Positions 15,961 to 26,143 of a stretch of 64,000 bases of DNA are shown here, piece after piece. The translations under genes were made by a program, and so were the position numbers. Positions within the stretch are counted from its first letter, which is position 1; every line of letters begins with the position of its first letter. The stretch is from Escherichia coli (lineage in GTDB: Bacteria > Pseudomonadota > Gammaproteobacteria > Enterobacterales > Enterobacteriaceae): assembly GCF_013122565.1 (NCBI RefSeq), contig NZ_CP053258.1, one strand, 5' to 3'. The notes beneath the pieces are model-generated. The model was not told where the DNA came from. It worked only from the letters and a program-made list of their open reading frames with translations, and did no database searches.

Positions 15961-17856
<1,896 letters not shown>

Positions 17857-17900: not shown

Positions 17901-18770
17901 TTATTTTATTGGGCACAGTTTGTTACGATCTGGAAATAGTGTTGCCAGCGAACCAGCCAGAGTTTTCCAGTCCGTAGCCATTTTTTCTGCTTGTGCAGTT
18001 GTTATTACTGCACCTTGTTGTTTAATAAGCTCATCCTCCACTCTGGTATAGTGAATAATGGTAAAATCCGTAGAGGACCATTTATCCTTAGAGAACATCT
18101 TCGTCATCGCATGAATGTTTGCTTGCCCGTCATCGATAAAAATAATCGCGTCATATTTGTTCCCCATTTTATCCAGCATATAATCGAGAATTACGCCTTT
18201 ATCTTGCCCGGAAGAAAAAAATACCCCCTGGCTGTACAGCCATGACCGTTTGAGTTTCCCTTTTTCAAAGGGTGGCAAAGTATCCTCTTTCTTCCTGAGT
18301 GCGGAAGACGAAAAATCAATGCCGTTTCGCTTTAATTCCCGCAATGTCGGAAAGAGAGTATCCGGTGCACGGGATGTCAGAGCAAAAGCGGTATGCTTTT
18401 GTTGCCACTGTTTTAACATTGTCGGTAACTGTGGCTCGGTAAGCTGCATAGGGCTAAGTTCGTAAAGCATACTGATTGTATTTTCATACAGGCAAGGAAC
18501 TTTTTGCGAGTCATCCGGCTTTAAGGGCAATTTATCGGTTTGCCATTGATACCAGATATCACCGCCAATGCGTGTGCCACTCGTTAATAACGTATTATCA
18601 ATGTCAAAAACCAATAATATCTTATCGGATGGATAGAGAGTTTCCTTTTCGGTGATAATTTTACTGACCGCACTATATTCGCCAGTAACTATATTTTTTA
18701 CCTGTGCGTAAGATAAAGCAGGCAGAGCAGAGAGCATCATCCAGAGAATGATTTTAAATTTATTATTCAT
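17901..18770 (-). CDS. Secreted HAD-superfamily phosphatase (acid phosphatase-like)
   Basis: 289-aa ORF; N-terminal signal peptide (MNNKFKIILWMMLSALPALSYAQ); HAD motif I DIDNTL; later FIDDGQ motif. Confidence 0.65.
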   Translation of the reverse strand: MNNKFKIILWMMLSALPALSYAQVKNIVTGEYSAVSKIITEKETLYPSDKILLVFDIDNTLLTSGTRIGGDIWYQWQTDKLPLKPDDSQKVPCLYENTISMLYELSPMQLTEPQLPTMLKQWQQKHTAFALTSRAPDTLFPTLRELKRNGIDFSSSALRKKEDTLPPFEKGKLKRSWLYSQGVFFSSGQDKGVILDYMLDKMGNKYDAIIFIDDGQANIHAMTKMFSKDKWSSTDFTIIHYTRVEDELIKQQGAVITTAQAEKMATDWKTLAGSLATLFPDRNKLCPIK

Positions 18771-18783
18771 TTTTTATTCCAGA

Positions 18784-19518
18784 TTAGAAAGTATAAGTCA
18801 GACCCCAGCGCCAGCGGATTTGGCGATTACTTGATGTTTTATCCACACCTTTATAATCCGCAATACTCATATAGGGTATCCACGATCCAATTTTGTACCC
18901 TACTTTAAATGATGCGGTATAGTTTTTATGGCCATCATTCCACGTTAAATAACCATTATTGTAATAGACCAGGTTTAACTGATATTGGAAGTTGGTTTTT
19001 TGTGGTCGATAGTCGATCCACACATCATAACGGCGGTTATTACGATCATCGTTGCCATAACCTTTGGATTTATCGGTGGCTTTATCCATGTCATAACGAA
19101 ACCGACCCGAAACTTTCCATTCTTTGCTGAAGTCATAACCCGCAGAAAGACCATATTCGTAAGTTGACCAATATTGCGTGGTATCAAGCCAGAACATGGG
19201 TTCTAACCAGAATTTTTTGTCATCCAGCGGCTTAAAGCGGTAAACAACAGATAATCCTGTTCCGTTATTGCCAAATTGTGAGGGGTCCCACTTATCTTTA
19301 TCACCTTCATCGGTGTTATAGCGTAATTCTCCCATCAAACCGATACCATTACTAAAAAATGTACCAAATTCAACGCGGTCCGCGTGGGTGCGAGTATCAT
19401 CAAGATACTCATGACGATAATCAATAAATCCATGCGGCTGTTCTGCACAGACTAGTGTAGGTGACAGGCAGGATAACATTGTTATTCCTGCAAGTGATAT
19501 TTTAAGATAAGAATTCAT
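18784..19518 (-). CDS. Outer-membrane beta-barrel porin, KdgM/NanC family (tentative)
   Basis: 244-aa ORF; signal peptide; Tyr/Trp/Gly-rich alternating pattern; C-terminal ...GLTYTF; IDYRHE motif near the N-terminus. Confidence 0.6.
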   Translation of the reverse strand: MNSYLKISLAGITMLSCLSPTLVCAEQPHGFIDYRHEYLDDTRTHADRVEFGTFFSNGIGLMGELRYNTDEGDKDKWDPSQFGNNGTGLSVVYRFKPLDDKKFWLEPMFWLDTTQYWSTYEYGLSAGYDFSKEWKVSGRFRYDMDKATDKSKGYGNDDRNNRRYDVWIDYRPQKTNFQYQLNLVYYNNGYLTWNDGHKNYTASFKVGYKIGSWIPYMSIADYKGVDKTSSNRQIRWRWGLTYTF

Positions 19519-19613
19519 AATATTCCCTTTCAGAATAAAATATATTTTTGGTGATCGAATACACCATCTGATGATTCCAGGTATTAGAATGTTTTTGTAT
19601 CTATAGTTTGACT

Positions 19614-20738
19614 TTAAACTTTAAGTTTGTTTTCCTTATCAATGAATAGATAAAATTTCGTCTGTTGATGGGGCTGGAAATTATTATCAGATACAAATAT
19701 TAACGATGTATGCCCATCAATCAGAGGACCGAAGGTTACCCCTTCAATACAATCCGCAGAGGAAGTGTAATCAGCAAAATCAATTAATAATTTTTTACTG
19801 ACGGGTTGTAACGTGGATTTATTGGACCAATCTTGCAGACTGTCAATATTCTTGATATCGCTGGCAGCAGTTAAATCGACCATATAAACTCTGACAGAGT
19901 AATCCCAGTCATTGAACCCAGCACTGACGTTTCTGCCGGAACGTTCGATGACCAACAATTGGTGATCATTCAGCGCCAGGACCTCGGATACGCCATTATC
20001 ATTAATACCGAACTTACTCACTTGCGGAACAGGATCAGTAATATAGAGATATTCATGCAATTGCTTTGAAGGTCGACCGTCTGCATCTATAGAAAATTGC
20101 AGTAAGCGTGCTGTGCCTGAATTTATTGGACTTGCAATAGGCCCATCCTGTTTAAGGCTGCTTTCAACGGCGATAAAAAGTGATTTTCCATCTGGTGTAA
20201 CTGTCAGGCCCTCCCAGGCGTTGCCGCTGCGAATACCATTGCTGCTCTCTTTGTCAGAACTAATATTAAAGCGAGCAGGAAATAAAGACGTAAAATCTTT
20301 CTCCATTACGCCATCGAGAGTGCTCAGACGCAGTGGAGCACCTAACTCCGAACTCCAGAGTAATGATTTACCATTGTGTGTCAGGGCCAGACCTTCGGCA
20401 TCCACCGTATTGGTCACGAAAGGCTGCTGTTTTGCATCAAGCAGTGGACGCTGGTTGAGAAAATTCACTTGCTCAATGCCCCTGGATGATACCTGTATTT
20501 TTAGTGTATAAAGACTGGCATCTCCTTCTTTATTATTGTTTCTGCTATCGTTAATAGCATAGAAAATATTTTTTTTTGCATCAAATGTGATGGCTGATAG
20601 CCCCGCGATTGTGACATTGTTCTGCTTTTCTCCCGTCCGGAAGTTAAACTCCCCAGCATAATGAAGAAAACTGTTTGCCTGCGCTGTTGTGCATAACAGC
20701 GGTAATGCCAGAAAAATAGCGGCATATCTTATTTTCAT
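19614..20738 (-). CDS. Secreted beta-propeller-like protein, phytase-like esterase family (tentative)
   Basis: 374-aa ORF; signal peptide MKIRYAAIFLALPLLCTTAQA; repeated AEGLA / EGLTVTPDG / IEGVTF motifs. Confidence 0.5.
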   Translation of the reverse strand: MKIRYAAIFLALPLLCTTAQANSFLHYAGEFNFRTGEKQNNVTIAGLSAITFDAKKNIFYAINDSRNNNKEGDASLYTLKIQVSSRGIEQVNFLNQRPLLDAKQQPFVTNTVDAEGLALTHNGKSLLWSSELGAPLRLSTLDGVMEKDFTSLFPARFNISSDKESSNGIRSGNAWEGLTVTPDGKSLFIAVESSLKQDGPIASPINSGTARLLQFSIDADGRPSKQLHEYLYITDPVPQVSKFGINDNGVSEVLALNDHQLLVIERSGRNVSAGFNDWDYSVRVYMVDLTAASDIKNIDSLQDWSNKSTLQPVSKKLLIDFADYTSSADCIEGVTFGPLIDGHTSLIFVSDNNFQPHQQTKFYLFIDKENKLKV

Positions 20739-20765
20739 GATATTTACCTTTGTATATATATGATT

Positions 20766-21680
20766 TTAGTCGTGTTGTGAAAGAAAAAGATTAACCTCCG
20801 ATGGTGTCGGCAGATGACCTCTGGCACCTAATGCAGTAATATTTATTGCTGCTGTGGCAGAAGCAAATTTTAGTGCTTCAATTAAGGGCATGTTTTTTAT
20901 TAAGCTATAAACAAATGCACCATTAAAAGTATCTCCAGCGCCTGTGGTATCAATAACGGGAATTGTATAACTACCTATTTTTACTTGCTCATTGCCTTTG
21001 ACTGCAATTACTCCCCTAACATCCAGCGTAACCACGACAGCGTCAAGTTGATACTCGTCTTGTATATCATGCAGAAGTGTAAAATCTGGCTCTGTTGCAT
21101 AGCCACGAATAAAACCGTCATAATTAAATATCGCAATATCAGCAAGGTGTAAAATTCTGGCAAGGTGTTCAGGTGTTGCAATGATATGAGGCTCAATATC
21201 AACGACAACTTTTGTCATTTGGCTACGGGAATATTCGGCCAGCATACGAAATTTCTCGATATCTGCTGGCATCGTATAAAAATAACGGCTTTGCGCAATT
21301 GCCTGCAGGGCTTTTTCTTTATCCCACTCATGATCACTACCAGGCGAGTAAACCAACGTTTTTTCACCTAATTCATCAATAAAGATAATCGCGGTATTGG
21401 CAATCAATTCCGGAATTACCTGAACGAAATCACAATTTACATGATATTTTTTAAATCCATCAAGAATGATCGAGGCTGAATGATCATTGCCCACACATGA
21501 AACAGATACCACATTGAGACCCAGTTGTCCCATCGCACAGGCACTGTTGGCGACTGTGCCGCCAGCTTGTTCACCCAGACGTGTCCCGACAACTTTACCG
21601 CCACGAGTGGGGAGTGACGGGATAGATAAAAAAATATCTATATTTCCACTGCCTAAAGCGGCGACATCAAATTTCTTCAT
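20766..21680 (-). CDS. PfkB-family carbohydrate/nucleoside kinase
   Basis: ORF 20766-21734; start placed at MKKFDVAALG with GGGAGA ribosome-binding site; PfkB signature DTTGAGDTFNGAF. Confidence 0.8.
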   Translation of the reverse strand: MKKFDVAALGSGNIDIFLSIPSLPTRGGKVVGTRLGEQAGGTVANSACAMGQLGLNVVSVSCVGNDHSASIILDGFKKYHVNCDFVQVIPELIANTAIIFIDELGEKTLVYSPGSDHEWDKEKALQAIAQSRYFYTMPADIEKFRMLAEYSRSQMTKVVVDIEPHIIATPEHLARILHLADIAIFNYDGFIRGYATEPDFTLLHDIQDEYQLDAVVVTLDVRGVIAVKGNEQVKIGSYTIPVIDTTGAGDTFNGAFVYSLIKNMPLIEALKFASATAAINITALGARGHLPTPSEVNLFLSQHD

Positions 21681-21684
21681 AGTC

Positions 21685-22683
21685 TTATTTCTCCCTATGG
21701 CTAACGCGTTGCCCGCCTGCGTCGACATAATCACAACTTAAATGCCAGCACATTTCATATAACCACTGCATGACCAGAAATAAATTGTTGGACTCACTGG
21801 CGTCAGGTATAAAACTGATTAATTCTGCTGTCGCTCCCTGTTCAACAATTGCTTTTTGGGTTGCAAGGTAAAATGGGGACTCGCAGGATGTGGCTGGTAG
21901 TAAAATATAATGCTGACCGACACCAGCCTGATGTAAGCGTAATGAATGATAAAATTCTTCCAGTGGAAGGGCTGTCGCACGAATCTGTGGGCCGCAAGAA
22001 AGTAAATTGCTCCCCGATATTGCCAGTCCCCAACTTAAGCCACTCCCAAGAAACGTTATCTCTTTTTGTTGGTAAAAATGGCGCTTCTTTTGCTGCCAGT
22101 GCTGATTAATCTGGCTAAATTTCCCTTCCAAATCCTCTTCAATCTGCAGTGGTGTTAAGCCTGGACATAATTTTTGCGCTAAGCGCAGGAGGGCATAAAG
22201 TGTGACGCTACTACTTTGCGTTGGAATACCCTGCTTATTCGCCCATGTATAGAGCATGTTTTCTGTTATTGCGCAAAATGGTGTTCCAGGGCAATTCGTC
22301 ACACCCAGCACTTGCGCGTTTGAGCATACTGCGTGGCAGAGGGCGTCAACGGTCATTGATGGTCTGCCACTTGCACTGAGAATAATGATTAACGTTTCTT
22401 TCTGATAACGGGTTAAATCAGTCTGAAGGAAATCCCACGTTTGCAATGCGTAACAAAACAGATGTGTGTATTTCCCCAGCCAGGCGGCGGCACATAGTGC
22501 CACCGTCCAGGAGTCGCCCGATCCCACTATACAGACGCGTTCAACAGCACGTTTATCGAGCTGAAAAGTAGAAAAACATTCACCCCAGATAGCTGCCAAA
22601 TGGCGTAACGATGCCGCGGTAGCATTTATTTCCTCACGAGTTTGCGCTAATGGCATAACAGGAGTACGGGCTGGCATGTTCAT
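21685..22683 (-). CDS. SIS-domain sugar-phosphate isomerase/deglycase-like protein
   Basis: 332-aa ORF; SIS motifs (VGSGDSW, SASGRPS); start codon overlaps the stop of the upstream gene by 1 nt. Confidence 0.7.
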   Translation of the reverse strand: MNMPARTPVMPLAQTREEINATAASLRHLAAIWGECFSTFQLDKRAVERVCIVGSGDSWTVALCAAAWLGKYTHLFCYALQTWDFLQTDLTRYQKETLIIILSASGRPSMTVDALCHAVCSNAQVLGVTNCPGTPFCAITENMLYTWANKQGIPTQSSSVTLYALLRLAQKLCPGLTPLQIEEDLEGKFSQINQHWQQKKRHFYQQKEITFLGSGLSWGLAISGSNLLSCGPQIRATALPLEEFYHSLRLHQAGVGQHYILLPATSCESPFYLATQKAIVEQGATAELISFIPDASESNNLFLVMQWLYEMCWHLSCDYVDAGGQRVSHREK

Positions 22684-23759
22684 TATTTCTCCTGTGCCTG
22701 TAATGCAAGCAATGTCAGACCCGATGCGATCGCTTCAATATCGAAATCTTTATTATTTACGGCGCGGAAAAAGGCATATTTATCTTCAGGGAGCGCATCA
22801 AAACCGCGCCATGCCCCTGCAATTGCGCCTGCCATCGTAGCGATGCTATCGGTGTCATTGCCAATATTGGCGCAGGCATGAATGGTTTCCCAGGGTTCTC
22901 CTTTGCAGTACAGCAATAGACCGATTGCCGCAGGAATGGATTCATGGGCGGCAACAGAGTTACCAACCAAACCTTCCATTTCTCGCAGACAAGACTCCAG
23001 GTCATTGGCTCGTCTGGCGATGTCCGCTGCAAGTTGGATGCGCATGGCGATAGATGGCCCTGCGACACATCGTGCATATTGTTTGGCCAGGCGTTCGCCG
23101 TAATTCGCTCCCCAGATTGCGGCGTCCAGTAATGATGTGAGCGAGGCTTCTGGTAACATAGCTTGTGATGTCGCCGCAGCGATGGCGCAAGCGCTGGCAA
23201 TCGCAATATTGGTGTCATGCGAAGGTAGGCAAGTTATTAGCGCCAGGTGACACGCTTTTTCTTTCTTGCCTGGCCAGATCAATCCTGCCGGGGCTACACG
23301 CATTCCTGCGCCGTTCGTGGTGCCGACATTGGGTGCCTGACGAGAAGATGTTCCAATACGCCCAATGGTGTTTGTTGGTCTACCTTCTTTTAGTGCCTTG
23401 ACGATTTGTTCTGTTGTGGGGCCTTTATAATTTGCGTAGGGCTGCATATCGGCCCAACGCAGAAGACAAGCTAACCAGTCATTATTGGTGAAGTTATCAA
23501 ATCCAGCCTCAATTAACCCTTCTGAAAATACATACATTTGGCTGGAATCGTCGGTAATAAGTCCCGCAATACCATTTAATGAGCCAGCAAAGGTATCGGC
23601 AGGAGGAGAAACAAAGGCATTTAAAAAACCTCCCCATTGCGCTTTTATTTCATCAATGCTGTAGAGTTCAGTCGCTGCGCCTAATGCATCGCCCATACCC
23701 GCGCAGGCTAAAGAACCTAATATTTTGTTATAAATTACGGCTTGTTCTATTTTGTTCAC
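22683..23759 (-). CDS. ADP-ribosylglycohydrolase-family protein
   Basis: 358-aa ORF; N-terminal GMGDALGAATE and C-terminal GNDTDSIATMAG motifs typical of the family. Confidence 0.75.
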   Translation of the reverse strand: MNKIEQAVIYNKILGSLACAGMGDALGAATELYSIDEIKAQWGGFLNAFVSPPADTFAGSLNGIAGLITDDSSQMYVFSEGLIEAGFDNFTNNDWLACLLRWADMQPYANYKGPTTEQIVKALKEGRPTNTIGRIGTSSRQAPNVGTTNGAGMRVAPAGLIWPGKKEKACHLALITCLPSHDTNIAIASACAIAAATSQAMLPEASLTSLLDAAIWGANYGERLAKQYARCVAGPSIAMRIQLAADIARRANDLESCLREMEGLVGNSVAAHESIPAAIGLLLYCKGEPWETIHACANIGNDTDSIATMAGAIAGAWRGFDALPEDKYAFFRAVNNKDFDIEAIASGLTLLALQAQEK

Positions 23760-23772
23760 AATATTCTCTCTG

Positions 23773-24525
23773 TTACACGCTAAAACTGTCTTTTGTAATT
23801 CGTGCTTTGTAGGAGTACCGACTTGCGGGATAAACCATCTCTACATACTCCATTGGTTTGCGTTCCACGGATAACGTGACGCGGGTACAACTTAATACGA
23901 CGTCATCGGCAGTCAGTTCCAGTAATTGACGCTCAAGAGGCGAGGGAAGTCGGGCAGAGATAATTTCCGTTGCTTCTAAAGGTTTAATAGCGAGTTTTTC
24001 TTCCAGTAAAATATAGAGGGAACCCGTCGCCAGCAGCTCTTCCTGAGTTATTTCTTGTCCGTCATTTAACGCAAGCCATGATGTCTGAATACCCAGCGGC
24101 GTACTTCCCATATAGCGAATGCGTTTTATACAGAAAACGGTATGGACATGGATATCAAGTTCGAGATTTTTTCTGATAATATCACTTAGAGGAATATAAC
24201 CTATTTCAAGAATATTCTGTGCAGGTACGCCGCCACGAGCCTTAATGTCATCAGTAAAACTATGTAATAAATGATTTTCCCGACTGCGAGCCGGTAATGT
24301 AAATGTTCCTTGCCCGTGGACACTATGCAGGTATCCGCGTTGTTTCAAACTTTCTATTGCTTTCCGAATTGTTGTTCTGCTGCTTAAAAAATGTTCAGCA
24401 AGTTCTCTTTCTGTTGGTATAGCTTTGCCTTCTTTCCATTCACCGTTATCAATCTTTTTCTTTATTTCATCAAAAATTTCACGATGCTTAAGCTGACCTT
24501 TACTGGCTTTATAAATTCTTATCAT
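23773..24525 (-). CDS. GntR/HutC-family transcriptional regulator (winged-HTH + UTRA domain)
   Basis: 250-aa ORF; N-terminal HTH (PTERELAEHFLSSRTTIRKAIESL); first gene of the minus-strand cluster, divergent from the transporter. Confidence 0.8.
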   Translation of the reverse strand: MIRIYKASKGQLKHREIFDEIKKKIDNGEWKEGKAIPTERELAEHFLSSRTTIRKAIESLKQRGYLHSVHGQGTFTLPARSRENHLLHSFTDDIKARGGVPAQNILEIGYIPLSDIIRKNLELDIHVHTVFCIKRIRYMGSTPLGIQTSWLALNDGQEITQEELLATGSLYILLEEKLAIKPLEATEIISARLPSPLERQLLELTADDVVLSCTRVTLSVERKPMEYVEMVYPASRYSYKARITKDSFSV

Positions 24526-24707
24526 GACAAAGCCTCATTTCAAGTGGTTGATACCAACTCTACATTCTTTTATTTTTATTGCGCAGTATGCTTCTTTGTT
24601 ATCTGTGATATAAAACAGAAAAAACCACATTTATTATTAAAAATCATTCAGTTAAATGAGATTGGTTTTTATGTGATGCTGCTCAATATTAACTCAGTGG
24701 TTTGTTG

Positions 24708-24719
24708 TGGTATCTACCA
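24708..24719. promoter_or_regulatory. Palindrome TGGTATCTACCA in the divergent promoter region; candidate GntR/HutC operator
   Basis: Perfect inverted repeat TGGTA-tc-TACCA between the regulator and transporter genes. Confidence 0.4.
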
Positions 24720-24811
24720 ATGCATTTATTCTCACTCGTAAAGTTATGTGCTGAATGAGTTCCGATACATTTGTTTTTAATATAATTTCACGTGATCAAT
24801 GAGTGCTGTGT

Positions 24812-26143
24812 ATGAAACTGACAATAAATGAAAAGATAGGTTTTGGTGCCGGTGATATGGCTATTGCGATAGTAATGATGTCTTTAGCCATGATCATCAC
24901 TTATTTTTACACGGATGTATTTGGTCTGAAACCCGTCGACTTAGGTATTCTGTTATTTTCTGTACGTATCCTTGATGCTGTGATTGATCCAGTTGTGGGA
25001 ACAATGACAGACAGAACGAATACACGTTGGGGAAAATATCGGCCGTGGTTGCTTTTTATGTCAATACCGTTTGGGATAAGCATTTGGTTGATGTTCACCA
25101 CACCTGATACCGATTATTCAGTTAAGCTTTTATGGGCCTGGGCTACCTATGTGTTACTTACCTTGACCTATACGTTAATCGCTATTCCTTATGTTTCATT
25201 AATCAGCGTTATCACGGATGATCCACAAGAGCGATTGAGCGCCAATGGTTATCGTTTTGTTATGACAAAAATTGCCATGTTCGCCGTAACAATTATTGTT
25301 CCTTTATCTGCAATGTATCTTGGGAAGAATAACGTACAACTGGGTTATCAAATAGCAATGGGGGCAATGGGAATTCTGGCAACGTGTTTATGCCTGTATT
25401 GTTTTTTTAGCGTGAGAGAGCGCATCTACCATCCAAAACCCAGTCTCGGTATGGCCGCGCAGTTTCGGTTACTGATCAAAAATGATCAATGGCTCATTTT
25501 GGGCGCTGTAATTGCGATCATTATGTTTGGCGGGATTATTCGTAACTCTGTCGCTGCATATTATGCAAAATATTACCTGAATGGTGGGGATGCTTTAATT
25601 TCACCGTTTTTAACTTCAGGCGTGATCGCCTCTGTTCTGGCTATGATCGCTTGTACCTGGCTTACTCGACTCTACGACAAAATAAAAATATTTCGTTATA
25701 CCCAATTACTGGCGTTCGTGGTGGGTGGTGCGATGTATTTCGTGCAACCAAATTCTATAGTGTTAGCTTTTACATTTTATATTGTGGTGACCTTCCTGAC
25801 GGATATTCAGCTTCCCATTTATTGGGCATCCATTGCTGAGTCCGTGGATTACGGTGAAATGAAAACGGGGCAACGTGTTTCTGGCCTGGCATTTGGCGGG
25901 ATTCTCTTTTTCCAAAAGTTCGGTATGGGGCTGGCAGGGGGCTTTATCGGAATCGCTTTAGCCTATTTGGATTATCAACCTGGTGTAGAACAAACACCAC
26001 AGGCGCTGTGGGGGATCTGCCTGTTAATGACGATCATTCCCGCGATACTTAACCTGATTACCGGACTCATCATGCGATTTTATCTGATTAATAATGAATT
26101 TTACGAACAGATTAAAGCACGGTTACAGACGGCGGAAGAGTGA
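24812..26143 (+). CDS. GPH-family (glycoside-pentoside-hexuronide) cation symporter
   Basis: ORF 24803-26143 with about 12 predicted transmembrane helices; N-terminal GxGxGD and RWGKYRPW motifs typical of MelB/YicJ-like transporters; start uncertain. Confidence 0.75.
   Translation: MKLTINEKIGFGAGDMAIAIVMMSLAMIITYFYTDVFGLKPVDLGILLFSVRILDAVIDPVVGTMTDRTNTRWGKYRPWLLFMSIPFGISIWLMFTTPDTDYSVKLLWAWATYVLLTLTYTLIAIPYVSLISVITDDPQERLSANGYRFVMTKIAMFAVTIIVPLSAMYLGKNNVQLGYQIAMGAMGILATCLCLYCFFSVRERIYHPKPSLGMAAQFRLLIKNDQWLILGAVIAIIMFGGIIRNSVAAYYAKYYLNGGDALISPFLTSGVIASVLAMIACTWLTRLYDKIKIFRYTQLLAFVVGGAMYFVQPNSIVLAFTFYIVVTFLTDIQLPIYWASIAESVDYGEMKTGQRVSGLAFGGILFFQKFGMGLAGGFIGIALAYLDYQPGVEQTPQALWGICLLMTIIPAILNLITGLIMRFYLINNEFYEQIKARLQTAEE

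What the first reader, a model, noticed from the sequence alone, without database searches (positions are those of the whole stretch)
24526..24811. Divergent AT-rich control region with a perfect TGGTATCTACCA palindrome between the GntR/HutC regulator and the GPH symporter
The 280-bp intergenic region is strongly AT-rich and holds a 12-bp perfect inverted repeat at 24708-24719. HutC/GntR operators typically have this TGGT...ACCA architecture, so this is a candidate autoregulatory and transporter-controlling operator. Identifying the operator would help deduce the effector.
Basis: seen in the sequence. Interest (0 to 1): 0.35.

Follow-up and report, generated by a model that had tools for sequence, protein, structure and literature searches.

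The report
Paired operator sites of a HutC repressor
The flagged sequence is one of two conserved binding-site-like motifs (TGGT-N4-ACCA) for the neighbouring GntR/HutC repressor, placed with two CRP-like sites in a divergent promoter region that switches on an uncharacterised sugar/nucleoside-type catabolic islet of some E. coli strains; it is an ordinary local-repressor arrangement, well supported by comparison across species but not yet by experiment.

Summary
The 12-mer TGGTATCTACCA is at 24708-24719, in a 286-bp, 31.5% GC spacer between a GntR/HutC regulator (23773-24525, -) and a GPH symporter (24812-26143, +). It is not a perfect palindrome: it has 5-bp arms around a non-symmetric TC, and alone it is no better than chance.

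It is 11/12 identical in reverse complement and lies 19 nt upstream of the regulator's ATG.

Across 10 orthologous spacers (two E. coli alleles, Enterobacter, Providencia, Leclercia, Trabulsiella, Kosakonia, metagenomes) I found 19 TGGT-N4-ACCA sites against 0.024 expected. The arms never vary. The central four bases change with the regulator's recognition helix.

CRP-like sites sit at fixed distances: 33-34 bp from the distal site and 61-62 bp from the proximal site.

In Leclercia the regulator gene has moved away. The site pair stays with the catabolic operon and transporter, and the regulator keeps its own single site.

The regulator conserves the NagR residues that read the GG step and those that bind a sugar phosphate.

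Verdict: a two-operator, probably CRP-dependent divergent control region of an uncharacterised HutC-family repressor. It is a new member of a known kind and of modest interest. No binding or transcription-start data exist.

The parts
24708..24719 (.). Distal operator O(T), TGGTATCTACCA: the flagged site, predicted to overlap the core promoter of the GPH symporter gene
   Evidence: The TGGT/ACCA arms are invariant in all orthologous spacers while the centre varies. A CRP-like site lies 33-34 bp away in 10 of 10 two-operator spacers.
24545..24556 (.).
   Evidence: I3, 92% complementary to the flagged site. In the eight enterobacterial-type loci tabulated it lies 14-22 nt upstream of the regulator start codon; in the two Vibrio-type loci it lies 54 and 71 nt upstream.
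24672..24687 (.). CRP-like site 1, TGTGATGCTGCTCAAT (8/10 match to TGTGA-N6-TCACA), centre 24679.5, 34 bp from the centre of the distal operator
   Evidence: same distance (34 bp, once 33) in 10 of 10 two-operator spacers; 33 bp in Leclercia. Half-site columns are conserved in the alignment. CRP binding is inferred, not tested.
24604..24619 (.). CRP-like site 2, TGTGATATAAAACAGA (8/10 match), centre 24611.5, 61 bp from the centre of the proximal operator
   Evidence: 61-62 bp in 6 spacers; 60 bp in Leclercia. Inferred.
24727..24732 (+). Predicted -10 hexamer TATTCT of the symporter promoter. The -35 would be TTGTGG at 24705-24710, overlapping the operator, and the start near 24739-24740.
   Evidence: Read from the sequence plus the geometry. 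TATGCT sits at the same place in the APEC allele and in L009. Inference only; no mapped start site.
24557..24562 (-). Predicted -10 hexamer TAGAGT (minus strand) of the regulator/catabolic-operon promoter, abutting the proximal operator. The start would fall near 24550, inside the operator.
   Evidence: Sequence. TAGAGT is identical in L009, and TA...T-type hexamers abut the operator in other lineages. A CRP-like site 61 bp from the operator centre fits a class I position. Inference only.
23773..24525 (-). GntR/HutC-family regulator (winged-helix GntR domain plus UTRA domain), 250 aa
   Evidence: Pfam PF00392 E=1.1e-17 and PF07702 E=3e-23. Closest solved structures are DasR and NagR/YvoA. The NagR DNA-contact residues Arg38/Arg48/Gly69 correspond to R40/R50/G71. 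The NagR phosphate-binding residues are conserved.
24812..26143 (+). GPH-family (MFS_2) symporter, divergent target gene
   Evidence: PF13347 E=9e-99. NCBIfam TIGR00792 gph scores above its cut-off.
22683..23759 (-). ADP-ribosylglycohydrolase-family protein, second gene of the regulator-led operon
   Evidence: PF03747 E=4e-49. Syntenic in all orthologous loci.
21685..22683 (-). SIS-domain (phosphosugar isomerase or deglycase-like) protein
   Evidence: PF01380. Distant similarity to the GlmS isomerase domain.
20766..21680 (-). PfkB-family, ribokinase-like kinase; its product is the likely source of the effector
   Evidence: PF00294 E=8e-44. Ribokinase models hit below their cut-offs. The start at 21680 follows the RefSeq annotation of the same gene.
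17901..20738 (-). Co-directional downstream genes, possibly part of the same transcript: phytase-like esterase (19614-20738), KdgM-family porin (18784-19518), DUF2608 protein (17901-18770)
   Evidence: Pfam. The same gene set accompanies the regulator in Enterobacter, Trabulsiella, Kosakonia, Leclercia and Vibrio. No TGGT-N4-ACCA site lies in front of them in E. coli.

Best explanation
The 286-bp spacer is a divergent control region with mirror-like architecture: operator O(T), CRP-like site 1, an AT-rich core, CRP-like site 2, operator O(R).

Proposed mechanism:
1. A dimer of the adjacent GntR/HutC regulator binds each TGGT-N4-ACCA site. Two conserved arginines (R40, R50) read the GG step of each half-site, as in NagR and DasR.
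2. O(R) (24545-24556) lies over the predicted transcription start of the promoter that drives the regulator and the catabolic genes behind it. Those genes are the ADP-ribosylglycohydrolase-like, SIS and PfkB kinase genes, and probably the phytase-like, KdgM and DUF2608 genes. The regulator therefore represses itself and the pathway.
3. O(T) (24708-24719, the flagged site) lies between or over the -35 and -10 elements of the symporter promoter and blocks RNA polymerase there.
4. Both promoters have weak -35 elements and a CRP-like site at about -60, so full expression would also need cAMP-CRP.
5. Repression is relieved when a phosphorylated sugar intermediate binds the UTRA domain. That intermediate is most likely the product of the islet's ribokinase-like kinase.

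Shown here: the sites, their conservation, the fixed geometry, the family assignment and the conserved contact residues.
Inferred: actual binding, the sign of regulation, the transcription start sites, CRP dependence and the effector.
For: 1. Two sites in the spacer, 11/12 identical in inverted orientation.
2. 19 TGGT-N4-ACCA sites in 10 orthologous regulator-upstream spacers against 0.024 expected from shuffles. The rest of the ten loci tabulated (about 89 kb) holds only 6 sites, some of them upstream of tsx genes in the Vibrio-type loci.
3. In the MAFFT alignment of spacers whose regulators are 52-100% identical to the window's, the fully conserved columns are essentially the TGGT and ACCA arms plus the CRP half-sites.
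4. The proximal site lies 14-22 nt upstream of the regulator ATG in the eight enterobacterial-type loci (54 and 71 nt in the two Vibrio-type loci). Site spacing is 163-166 or 177-179 bp.
5. CRP-like sites (at least 8/10) number 19 against 1.7 expected. They sit exactly 34 bp (once 33) from the distal operator and 61-62 bp from the proximal operator.
6. A natural rearrangement test: in Leclercia the regulator gene is separated from the catabolic operon. The ARH/GPH divergent spacer still carries two TGGTAGATACCA sites 162 bp apart, with CRP-like sites at 60 and 33 bp. The regulator keeps one site 14 nt from its own ATG. These are the only three exact matches in 20.7 kb.
7. Protein-DNA covariation. 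Regulators with helix SSRTTIRKA and wing HGxG go with centres ATCA, AGAT, ATAT or AACT. VNRITVRKA with wing AKxG goes with GTAC or GTAG. The Vibrio type VSRSTVRKA goes with ACGT or TCGT. R40 and R50 are invariant (27/27), as is the GG step.
8. The closest solved structures are DasR and NagR. In NagR, Arg38 and Arg48 read two consecutive guanines and Gly69 contacts the minor groove (PMC4333415). Most HutC-subfamily sites have GT and AC 4 nt apart (PMC4494728).
9. The NagR phosphate ligands Thr90, Arg133, Arg135, Ser165, Ile166 and Tyr167 align with T91, R135, R137, S169, L170 and Y171. All but T91 are invariant in the family.
Against: There are no experimental data: no binding assay, no mapped transcription start, no expression data for this islet. 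The generic promoter scan found no convincing sigma-70 promoter in the predicted places; its 2 hits match the 2.7 expected and lie at or inside the regulator's coding start. The proposed -10 elements match the consensus at only 4 of 6 positions. A perfect TATAAT at 24781-24786 could be an alternative symporter promoter, which would put the flagged site near -80. That hexamer is TATAAG in the 92%-identity E. coli allele, and nothing recognisably similar is seen at that place in more distant orthologues. CRP site 2 falls below 8/10 in four lineages. The covariation rests on only three regulator groups.
Confidence: 0.75

Rival explanations
1. The same two sites and the same regulator, but the two operators work as one unit. 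Two dimers bound 163 bp apart would interact and loop the DNA, shutting both promoters together, rather than each site blocking its own promoter.
For: Two sites at a roughly conserved distance in almost every lineage. GgaR/YegW, another E. coli HutC-type single-target repressor, also uses two neighbouring sites (PMC10819704).
Against: The spacing is 162-166 bp in one group and 177-179 bp in another. That is about 15.5 versus 17 helical turns, so the helical phase is not conserved. Each operator instead keeps a fixed distance to its own CRP-like site, which fits promoter-by-promoter control. Leclercia and the two Vibrio-type spacers have single sites in front of the regulator. HutC-family repressors solved so far are dimers.
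Confidence: 0.1
2. The sites are real protein-binding sites, but for a different transcription factor (another HutC or GntR paralogue, or a global regulator) rather than the adjacent regulator.
For: TGGT...ACCA-like motifs are used by several GntR-family proteins: dre sites of DasR and NagR, and TGGTATT repeats of NagQ (PMC4494728). One Vibrio locus has a second GntR/UTRA gene next door.
Against: The motif occurs next to this regulator or its target genes in every lineage, including after rearrangement. Its centre changes together with this regulator's recognition helix. E. coli GgaR is only 25% identical, and the spacer upstream of its target operon yegTUV contains no TGGT-N4-ACCA site, even allowing one mismatch.
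Confidence: 0.06
3. The regulator binds the sites but acts as an activator, or as a dual regulator, at one or both promoters.
For: If the symporter promoter is really the TATAAT at 24781-24786, the flagged site would lie near -80, which is an activator-like position.
Against: Characterised close relatives (NagR, DasR, GgaR) are repressors released by effectors (PMC4333415, PMC4918961, PMC10819704). The proximal site, 14-22 nt from the ATG in most lineages, cannot be upstream of a promoter. The TATAAT is not conserved.
Confidence: 0.05
4. The flagged inverted repeat is a chance feature of an AT-rich spacer with no function.
For: Taken alone it is not significant: 39% of shuffles contain a 5+2+5 inverted repeat, and 27% contain a pair of 12-mers with at most one mismatch.
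Against: 19 sites observed against 0.024 expected across orthologous spacers. The arms are invariant in otherwise diverged sequence, and the geometry is fixed.
Confidence: 0.02

Closest known systems
dre sites of NagR (YvoA, Bacillus subtilis) and DasR (Streptomyces coelicolor), GntR/HutC repressors of N-acetylglucosamine genes
   Same: Dimeric HutC-type repressor. The operator is an inverted repeat with a GG step in each half-site. The two base-reading arginines and the wing glycine are conserved (R40, R50, G71). Natural sites are imperfect palindromes. The phosphate-binding residues of the effector pocket are conserved. These are the closest solved structures (PMC4333415, PMC4918961).
   Different: The regulator aligns with DasR and NagR only at E=1e-25 to 4e-20 and scores below every NCBIfam equivalog cut-off. 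The target genes are unrelated to nag genes. The operator centre is ATCA, AGAT, GTAC or ACGT rather than the dre core. The sites come as a pair tied to CRP-like sites in a divergent promoter.
GgaR (YegW) and the yegTUV operon of E. coli K-12
   Same: A HutC-type, single-target local repressor of an operon that encodes a transporter, an ADP-ribosylglycohydrolase-family protein (YegU) and a PfkB kinase (YegV). It has two adjacent binding sites and is released by a sugar-nucleotide effector (PMC10819704).
   Different: Only 25% (regulator), 32% (ARH protein) and 22% (kinase) identity. The yegT upstream region has no TGGT-N4-ACCA site. The transporter family differs (NHS versus GPH). yegTUV has no SIS, porin, phytase-like or DUF2608 genes. 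yegW is convergent with its target operon, not divergent from it.
NupR (NagR2) of Bacillus thuringiensis, a HutC-family regulator of nucleoside uptake
   Same: An autoregulated HutC-family repressor of nucleoside-type transport genes, with an added layer of catabolite control (CcpA there, CRP-like sites here) (PMC9430930). Vibrio-type orthologues of the present regulator sit in front of a Bmp-type nucleoside ABC transporter.
   Different: A different binding motif (20-bp nup site), a reported zinc effector and a purine riboswitch. Here no RNA element was found.
FrlR/frlABCD (E. coli) and FraR/fra (Salmonella) Amadori-compound loci
   Same: From general knowledge: a GntR/HutC regulator with a PfkB-type kinase, a SIS-domain deglycase and a transporter. 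An frl regulation study turned up in the literature search (bioRxiv 10.1101/2020.01.13.904318).
   Different: No equivalog match: the fructoselysine 6-kinase model scores 45 bits against a cut-off of 247. This islet has an ADP-ribosylglycohydrolase-family enzyme and nucleoside-linked neighbours instead. Not tested further.

Membership tests
GntR/HutC subfamily regulator (the protein) | N-terminal GntR winged helix-turn-helix domain | tested here: met
   PF00392, E=1.1e-17, residues 15-75
GntR/HutC subfamily regulator (the protein) | C-terminal UTRA (chorismate-lyase-fold) effector domain | tested here: met
   PF07702, E=3e-23, residues 97-237. Full-length alignment to DasR and NagR.
GntR/HutC subfamily regulator (the protein) | Base-contacting residues of NagR (Arg38, Arg48, wing Gly69) are present | tested here: met
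   R40 and R50 are invariant in 27/27 family members. G71 is present in 22/27, with K in the group whose operator centre is GTAC or GTAG.
HutC-type operator | Inverted repeat with GT and AC separated by 4 nt (NyGTMTAKACNy) | tested here: met
   TGGT-N4-ACCA at 24545 and 24708. Consensus taken from PMC4494728. The centre only partly fits MTAK (ATCA/ATCT).
HutC-type operator | Conserved in front of orthologous regulators and target genes | tested here: met
   19 sites in 10 spacers against 0.024 expected. The Leclercia rearrangement keeps sites at both the target spacer and the regulator.
HutC-type operator | Overlaps the promoter it controls | tested here: inconclusive
   The positions fit predicted -10/-35 elements and CRP geometry, but no start site is mapped and the generic promoter scan is uninformative.
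HutC-type operator | Specific binding by the regulator, relieved by an effector | not testable with these tools
   Needs EMSA, footprinting or ChIP.
dre site / DasR-NagR regulon (strict membership) | The regulator is orthologous to DasR or NagR and the targets are GlcNAc or chitin utilisation genes | tested here: not met
   No NCBIfam equivalog is reached. The targets are ARH, SIS, PfkB, GPH and KdgM genes. It is dre-like in recognition only.
CRP-dependent (class I) promoter | TGTGA-N6-TCACA-like site, conserved | tested here: met
   8/10 matches at 24672-24687 and 24604-24619. 19 sites observed against 1.7 expected across orthologues, at fixed distances.
CRP-dependent (class I) promoter | Site centred near -61.5 relative to the start, and cAMP-CRP dependence | not testable with these tools
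   The start sites are only predicted. Needs 5'-RACE and a crp mutant.
GgaR(YegW)/yegTUV system | Orthology of the regulator and a shared binding motif | tested here: not met
   25% identity. No TGGT-N4-ACCA site, even with one mismatch, in the fbaB/yegT spacer.

The most novel reading that the evidence does not exclude
The operator pair marks the regulon of a catabolic pathway that has not been described. The pathway would handle a ribose-containing or nucleoside-like compound.

Proposed route:
1. Porin entry (KdgM or Tsx).
2. Periplasmic dephosphorylation (phytase-like esterase, DUF2608).
3. Uptake by the GPH symporter, or by a Bmp-type ABC transporter in Vibrio.
4. Cleavage by an ADP-ribosylglycohydrolase-family enzyme.
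5. Phosphorylation by a ribokinase-like kinase.
6. Conversion by a SIS-domain enzyme.

The kinase product would act as inducer of the HutC repressor. The two conserved operators would then give a direct handle (reporter fusions, regulator release assays) for finding the unknown substrate.
Probability: 0.35. Interest if true: 0.55.

Novelty: new member of a known kind. Interest (0 to 1): 0.3.

Why it matters
In itself this is a routine local repressor-operator arrangement of a well-understood family. Its value is practical.

- It defines, with strong comparative support, the two cis-elements and the probable catabolite-control sites. These switch an eight-gene accessory islet found in about 7.5% of complete E. 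coli genomes and in several other Enterobacterales and Vibrio.
- None of the islet's proteins reaches a curated functional assignment. The neighbours in other species (Tsx, adenosine deaminase, purine nucleoside phosphorylase, Bmp-type nucleoside ABC transporter) point to an unstudied nucleoside- or ribosyl-compound pathway.
- A defined operator and a repressor with a phosphate-binding pocket make substrate and effector screening straightforward.
- The three regulator groups, each with a matching operator centre, add a small natural data set on how HutC recognition helices specify the centre of the operator.

Tried and rejected
1. 'Perfect 12-bp palindrome': rejected by direct reading. It matches its reverse complement at 10 of 12 positions, and alone it is not significant.
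2. TCACGTGA at 24787-24794 is a truly perfect 8-bp palindrome. It is broken in the 92% and 97% E. coli alleles, so I do not consider it functional.
3. The generic sigma-70 and terminator scan gave 2 promoter-like hits against 2.7 expected, both at or inside the regulator's coding start, and no terminator. It was uninformative.
4. RNA element in the spacer or 5' UTR: no Rfam match at E<=1. The predicted 5' UTR folds no better than shuffles, z=+1.3. A 5-bp stem with a 2-nt loop cannot form a hairpin.
5. Same system as GgaR/YegW-yegTUV of K-12: rejected on 22-32% protein identity and a different upstream motif.
6. Literature and supplement searches for the exact operator sequences returned only unrelated primers and the like. 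The sequences are not in the HutC regulon tables of PMC4494728. A search for the islet's domain combination found no paper.
7. DNA looping as a required mechanism: disfavoured because the helical phase between operators is not conserved.
8. Extra operators in front of the phytase-like, KdgM and DUF2608 genes in E. coli: none. The matches with one mismatch all lie inside coding sequence.
9. The other three TGGT-N4-ACCA matches in the window (2197, 15917, 62175) were set aside. Two are inside long ORFs, and the third corresponds to the 3' end of yqiA as annotated in APEC O2-211, a gene flanking the islet.

Full report
**Setting.** The window is E. coli chromosome. parE lies at 15964-17856, and ygiN, mdaB and qseCB follow from 26187 (RefSeq annotation of the same locus). 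Between parE and ygiN sits an 8.2-kb islet of lower GC content: 42.4% against 49.7% for the window. It has eight genes:

| Coordinates | Strand | Product |
|---|---|---|
| 17901-18770 | - | DUF2608 protein |
| 18784-19518 | - | KdgM-family porin |
| 19614-20738 | - | phytase-like esterase |
| 20766-21680 | - | PfkB kinase |
| 21685-22683 | - | SIS-domain protein |
| 22683-23759 | - | ADP-ribosylglycohydrolase-family (ARH) protein |
| 23773-24525 | - | GntR/HutC regulator (GntR + UTRA domains) |
| 24812-26143 | + | GPH/MFS_2 symporter |

The spacer region with its flanking gene ends is found in 407 of 5426 complete E. coli genomes. It occurs as three allele classes, at 99% or more, about 97% and about 92% identity.

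**Checking the observation.** TGGTATCTACCA is at 24708-24719, and the spacer (24526-24811, 286 bp) is 31.5% GC. The repeat is not perfect. Its reverse complement is TGGTAGATACCA, so the arms are TGGTA/TACCA around a non-symmetric TC. On its own this is unremarkable: 39% of shuffles of the spacer contain a 5+2+5 inverted repeat.

Its reverse complement, TGGTATCAACCA, differs from the flagged site by one central base. It lies 19 nt upstream of the regulator's ATG, just before the GAGG ribosome-binding site.

The pattern TGGT-N4-ACCA occurs 5 times in the window against 0.63 expected. The two sites in this spacer lie between genes. Two of the other three are inside long ORFs. The third lies just upstream of parE, where the same motif in APEC O2-211 falls inside the annotated yqiA gene.

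**Comparative evidence.** Within E. coli both sites are kept in all three alleles. The 92% allele has TGGTATCAACCA at the flagged position, so the 'palindromic' centre is free to vary.

I collected orthologous loci through a protein search, a genome scan and contig look-ups. They come from Enterobacter, Providencia, Leclercia, Trabulsiella, Kosakonia, Vibrio and several metagenome assemblies. Their regulators are 47-85% identical to the window's, and the same gene set travels with them.

Findings across these loci:

- Every regulator-upstream spacer carries TGGT-N4-ACCA: 19 sites in 10 spacers against 0.024 expected from shuffles.
- The proximal site lies 14-22 nt from the regulator ATG in the eight enterobacterial-type loci tabulated. 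In the two Vibrio-type loci it lies 54 and 71 nt upstream.
- The second site lies 163-166 bp away in one set of lineages and 177-179 bp away in another.
- In a MAFFT alignment of ten spacers, the fully conserved columns are essentially the TGGT and ACCA arms plus a few CRP half-site positions. The rest has diverged.
- In Vibrio europaeus further sites lie next to the start of the kdgM-like gene and just upstream of a second porin-like gene (one exact, one with a single mismatch). In the other two Vibrio-type loci similar sites lie next to called tsx and KdgM genes.

A natural rearrangement gives an independent test. In Leclercia the regulator gene is separated from the catabolic operon. The ARH/GPH divergent spacer nevertheless has two TGGTAGATACCA sites 162 bp apart. 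The regulator has its own single site 14 nt before its ATG. These three are the only exact matches in 20.7 kb.

**Second conserved element.** Matches of at least 8/10 to the CRP consensus TGTGA-N6-TCACA occur 19 times in these spacers against 1.7 expected. They sit at fixed distances:

- One has its centre 34 bp (once 33) from the centre of the distal operator in all 10 two-operator spacers. In the window it is at 24672-24687.
- One lies 61-62 bp from the centre of the proximal operator in six spacers. In the window it is at 24604-24619.
- Leclercia shows 33 and 60 bp.

With a -10-like TAGAGT abutting the proximal operator (24557-24562, minus strand), the CRP-like site falls at about -61.5 and the operator spans the predicted start.

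With TATTCT at 24727-24732 as the -10 for the symporter, the other CRP-like site falls at about -60. The flagged operator then fills the -35/-10 spacer and overlaps a TTGTGG -35 element. The same position holds TATGCT in the 92% allele and in L009.

If that promoter were class II (CRP at -41.5), the operator would instead cover the -10 element. In either case it overlaps the core promoter. These promoter assignments are inference: no start site is mapped, and the generic scan was uninformative.

**Protein side.** The closest solved structures are DasR and NagR/YvoA. In the NagR-DNA complex, Arg38 and Arg48 make bidentate contacts to two consecutive guanines, and wing residue Gly69 contacts the minor groove (PMC4333415). 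These residues align with R40, R50 and G71 here. R40 and R50 are invariant in 27 family members.

[quoted passage not shown] Both are present here, and the GG step is invariant in every site found. PMC4494728 reports that GT and AC are 4 nt apart in most HutC-subfamily sites, which also holds here.

The operator centre tracks the recognition helix:

| Regulator group | Helix | Wing | Operator centre |
|---|---|---|---|
| E. coli-like | SSRTTIRKA | HGxG | ATCA, AGAT, ATAT, AACT |
| Kosakonia, Trabulsiella, L016 | VNRITVRKA | AKxG | GTAC, GTAG |
| Vibrio | VSRSTVRKA | HGSG or QGSG | ACGT, TCGT |

This rests on three groups only, so it is suggestive rather than proven.

**Effector class.** The NagR residues that hold the phosphate of GlcNAc-6-P are Thr90, Arg133, Arg135, Ser165, Ile166 and Tyr167 (PMC4333415). 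They align with T91, R135, R137, S169, L170 and Y171, and all but T91 are invariant in the family. The inducer is therefore probably a phosphorylated sugar. The most economical candidate is the product of the islet's ribokinase-like PfkB kinase. This is inference.

**Mechanism proposed.** A divergent, probably CRP-dependent promoter pair is controlled by two operators.

- O(R) (24545-24556) represses the regulator-led catabolic operon, which gives autoregulation.
- O(T) (24708-24719) represses the symporter gene.
- Both are released by a phosphosugar intermediate.

Looping between the two sites is possible but not favoured, because the helical phase is not conserved (about 15.5 versus 17 turns). 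Each operator instead keeps a constant distance to its own CRP-like site.

**Comparison with known systems.**

- Recognition is dre-like (NagR/DasR). This is not a dre site in the strict sense: the regulator reaches no NCBIfam equivalog cut-off and the targets are unrelated to GlcNAc genes.
- The nearest E. coli analogue by gene content is GgaR(YegW)/yegTUV, a HutC repressor with two sites controlling a transporter, an ARH-family protein and a PfkB kinase (PMC10819704). Identities are only 22-32%, and the yegT upstream region lacks the motif.
- NupR of Bacillus thuringiensis is a functional parallel: an autoregulated HutC regulator of nucleoside uptake with catabolite control (PMC9430930).
- I found no paper or regulon table that contains these operator sequences.

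**Verdict.** This is a new member of a known kind, and its interest is modest. The more interesting open question is what the islet degrades.

Noticed in passing
window 17901-26143: An eight-gene islet of lower GC (42% against 50% for the window) is inserted between parE and ygiN. Its central spacer region is found in 407 of 5426 complete E. coli genomes, as three allele classes (at least 99%, about 97%, about 92% identity). None of its proteins reaches an NCBIfam equivalog cut-off.
   Followed up: partly
L010 1520-2323; L011 1-1313; L012 356-1528; L014 1555-2466 and 4776-8762; L015 412-1218 and 3896-7876; L016 277-1296: In orthologous loci the same regulon is joined by Tsx nucleoside channels, adenosine deaminase, a purine nucleoside phosphorylase-family gene, or (Vibrio type) a Bmp-type nucleoside ABC transporter in place of the GPH symporter. 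With the ribokinase-like kinase and the ARH-family hydrolase, this suggests a nucleoside- or ribosyl-compound substrate. The pathway appears uncharacterised.
   Followed up: partly
window 24620-24627 and 24663-24670: Perfect 8-bp inverted repeat AAAAACCA / TGGTTTTT, each arm next to one CRP-like site and each containing an operator-like half-site (ACCA / TGGT). It is conserved where the regulator is at least 67% identical and absent in more distant lineages. Its function is unexplained; it could be CRP flank or bending sequence, or auxiliary half-sites.
   Followed up: partly
window 24697-24711: GTGGTTTGTTGTGGT: a second TGGT half-site lies one helical turn (11 bp start-to-start) upstream of the left arm of the flagged operator. 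The equivalent ACCA-CAAYAA-ACCA is kept in E. coli, L011 and L012. It could be an auxiliary half-site or simply part of the -35 region.
   Followed up: no
window 24787-24794: TCACGTGA is a truly perfect 8-bp palindrome just upstream of the symporter start codon. It is disrupted in the 97% and 92% E. coli alleles, so it is probably not functional.
   Followed up: yes
L001 10849-18041 (E. coli APEC O2-211): In the 92%-identity allele the islet is followed, before ygiN, by a TonB-dependent siderophore receptor, a FecCD-type ABC transporter and an RpiR-family regulator. This cluster is absent from the window, so this chromosomal spot accumulates accessory modules.
   Followed up: no
L003 2845-7791 (E. 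coli Z142-3): The islet is decaying in this strain. Three IS1 copies replace the catabolic genes and split the control region, leaving the two operator sites about 2.3 kb apart. The symporter gene is frameshifted.
   Followed up: no
window 24739-24760 and 24783-24804: A 22-nt direct repeat (73% identity, 44 bp apart), with both copies ending in AATGAGT, lies in the predicted 5' UTR of the symporter gene. I did not examine it in orthologues.
   Followed up: no
window 20766-21734: The mechanical ORF for the PfkB kinase starts at a GTG (21734) that overlaps the SIS gene by 50 nt. RefSeq annotation of the same gene uses the ATG equivalent to 21680, 4 nt after the SIS stop codon, which looks more plausible.
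   Followed up: partly
L015 2005-2739: In Vibrio artabrorum a second GntR/UTRA regulator gene lies divergently next to the orthologous regulator. This suggests duplication or a two-regulator arrangement in that lineage.
   Followed up: no
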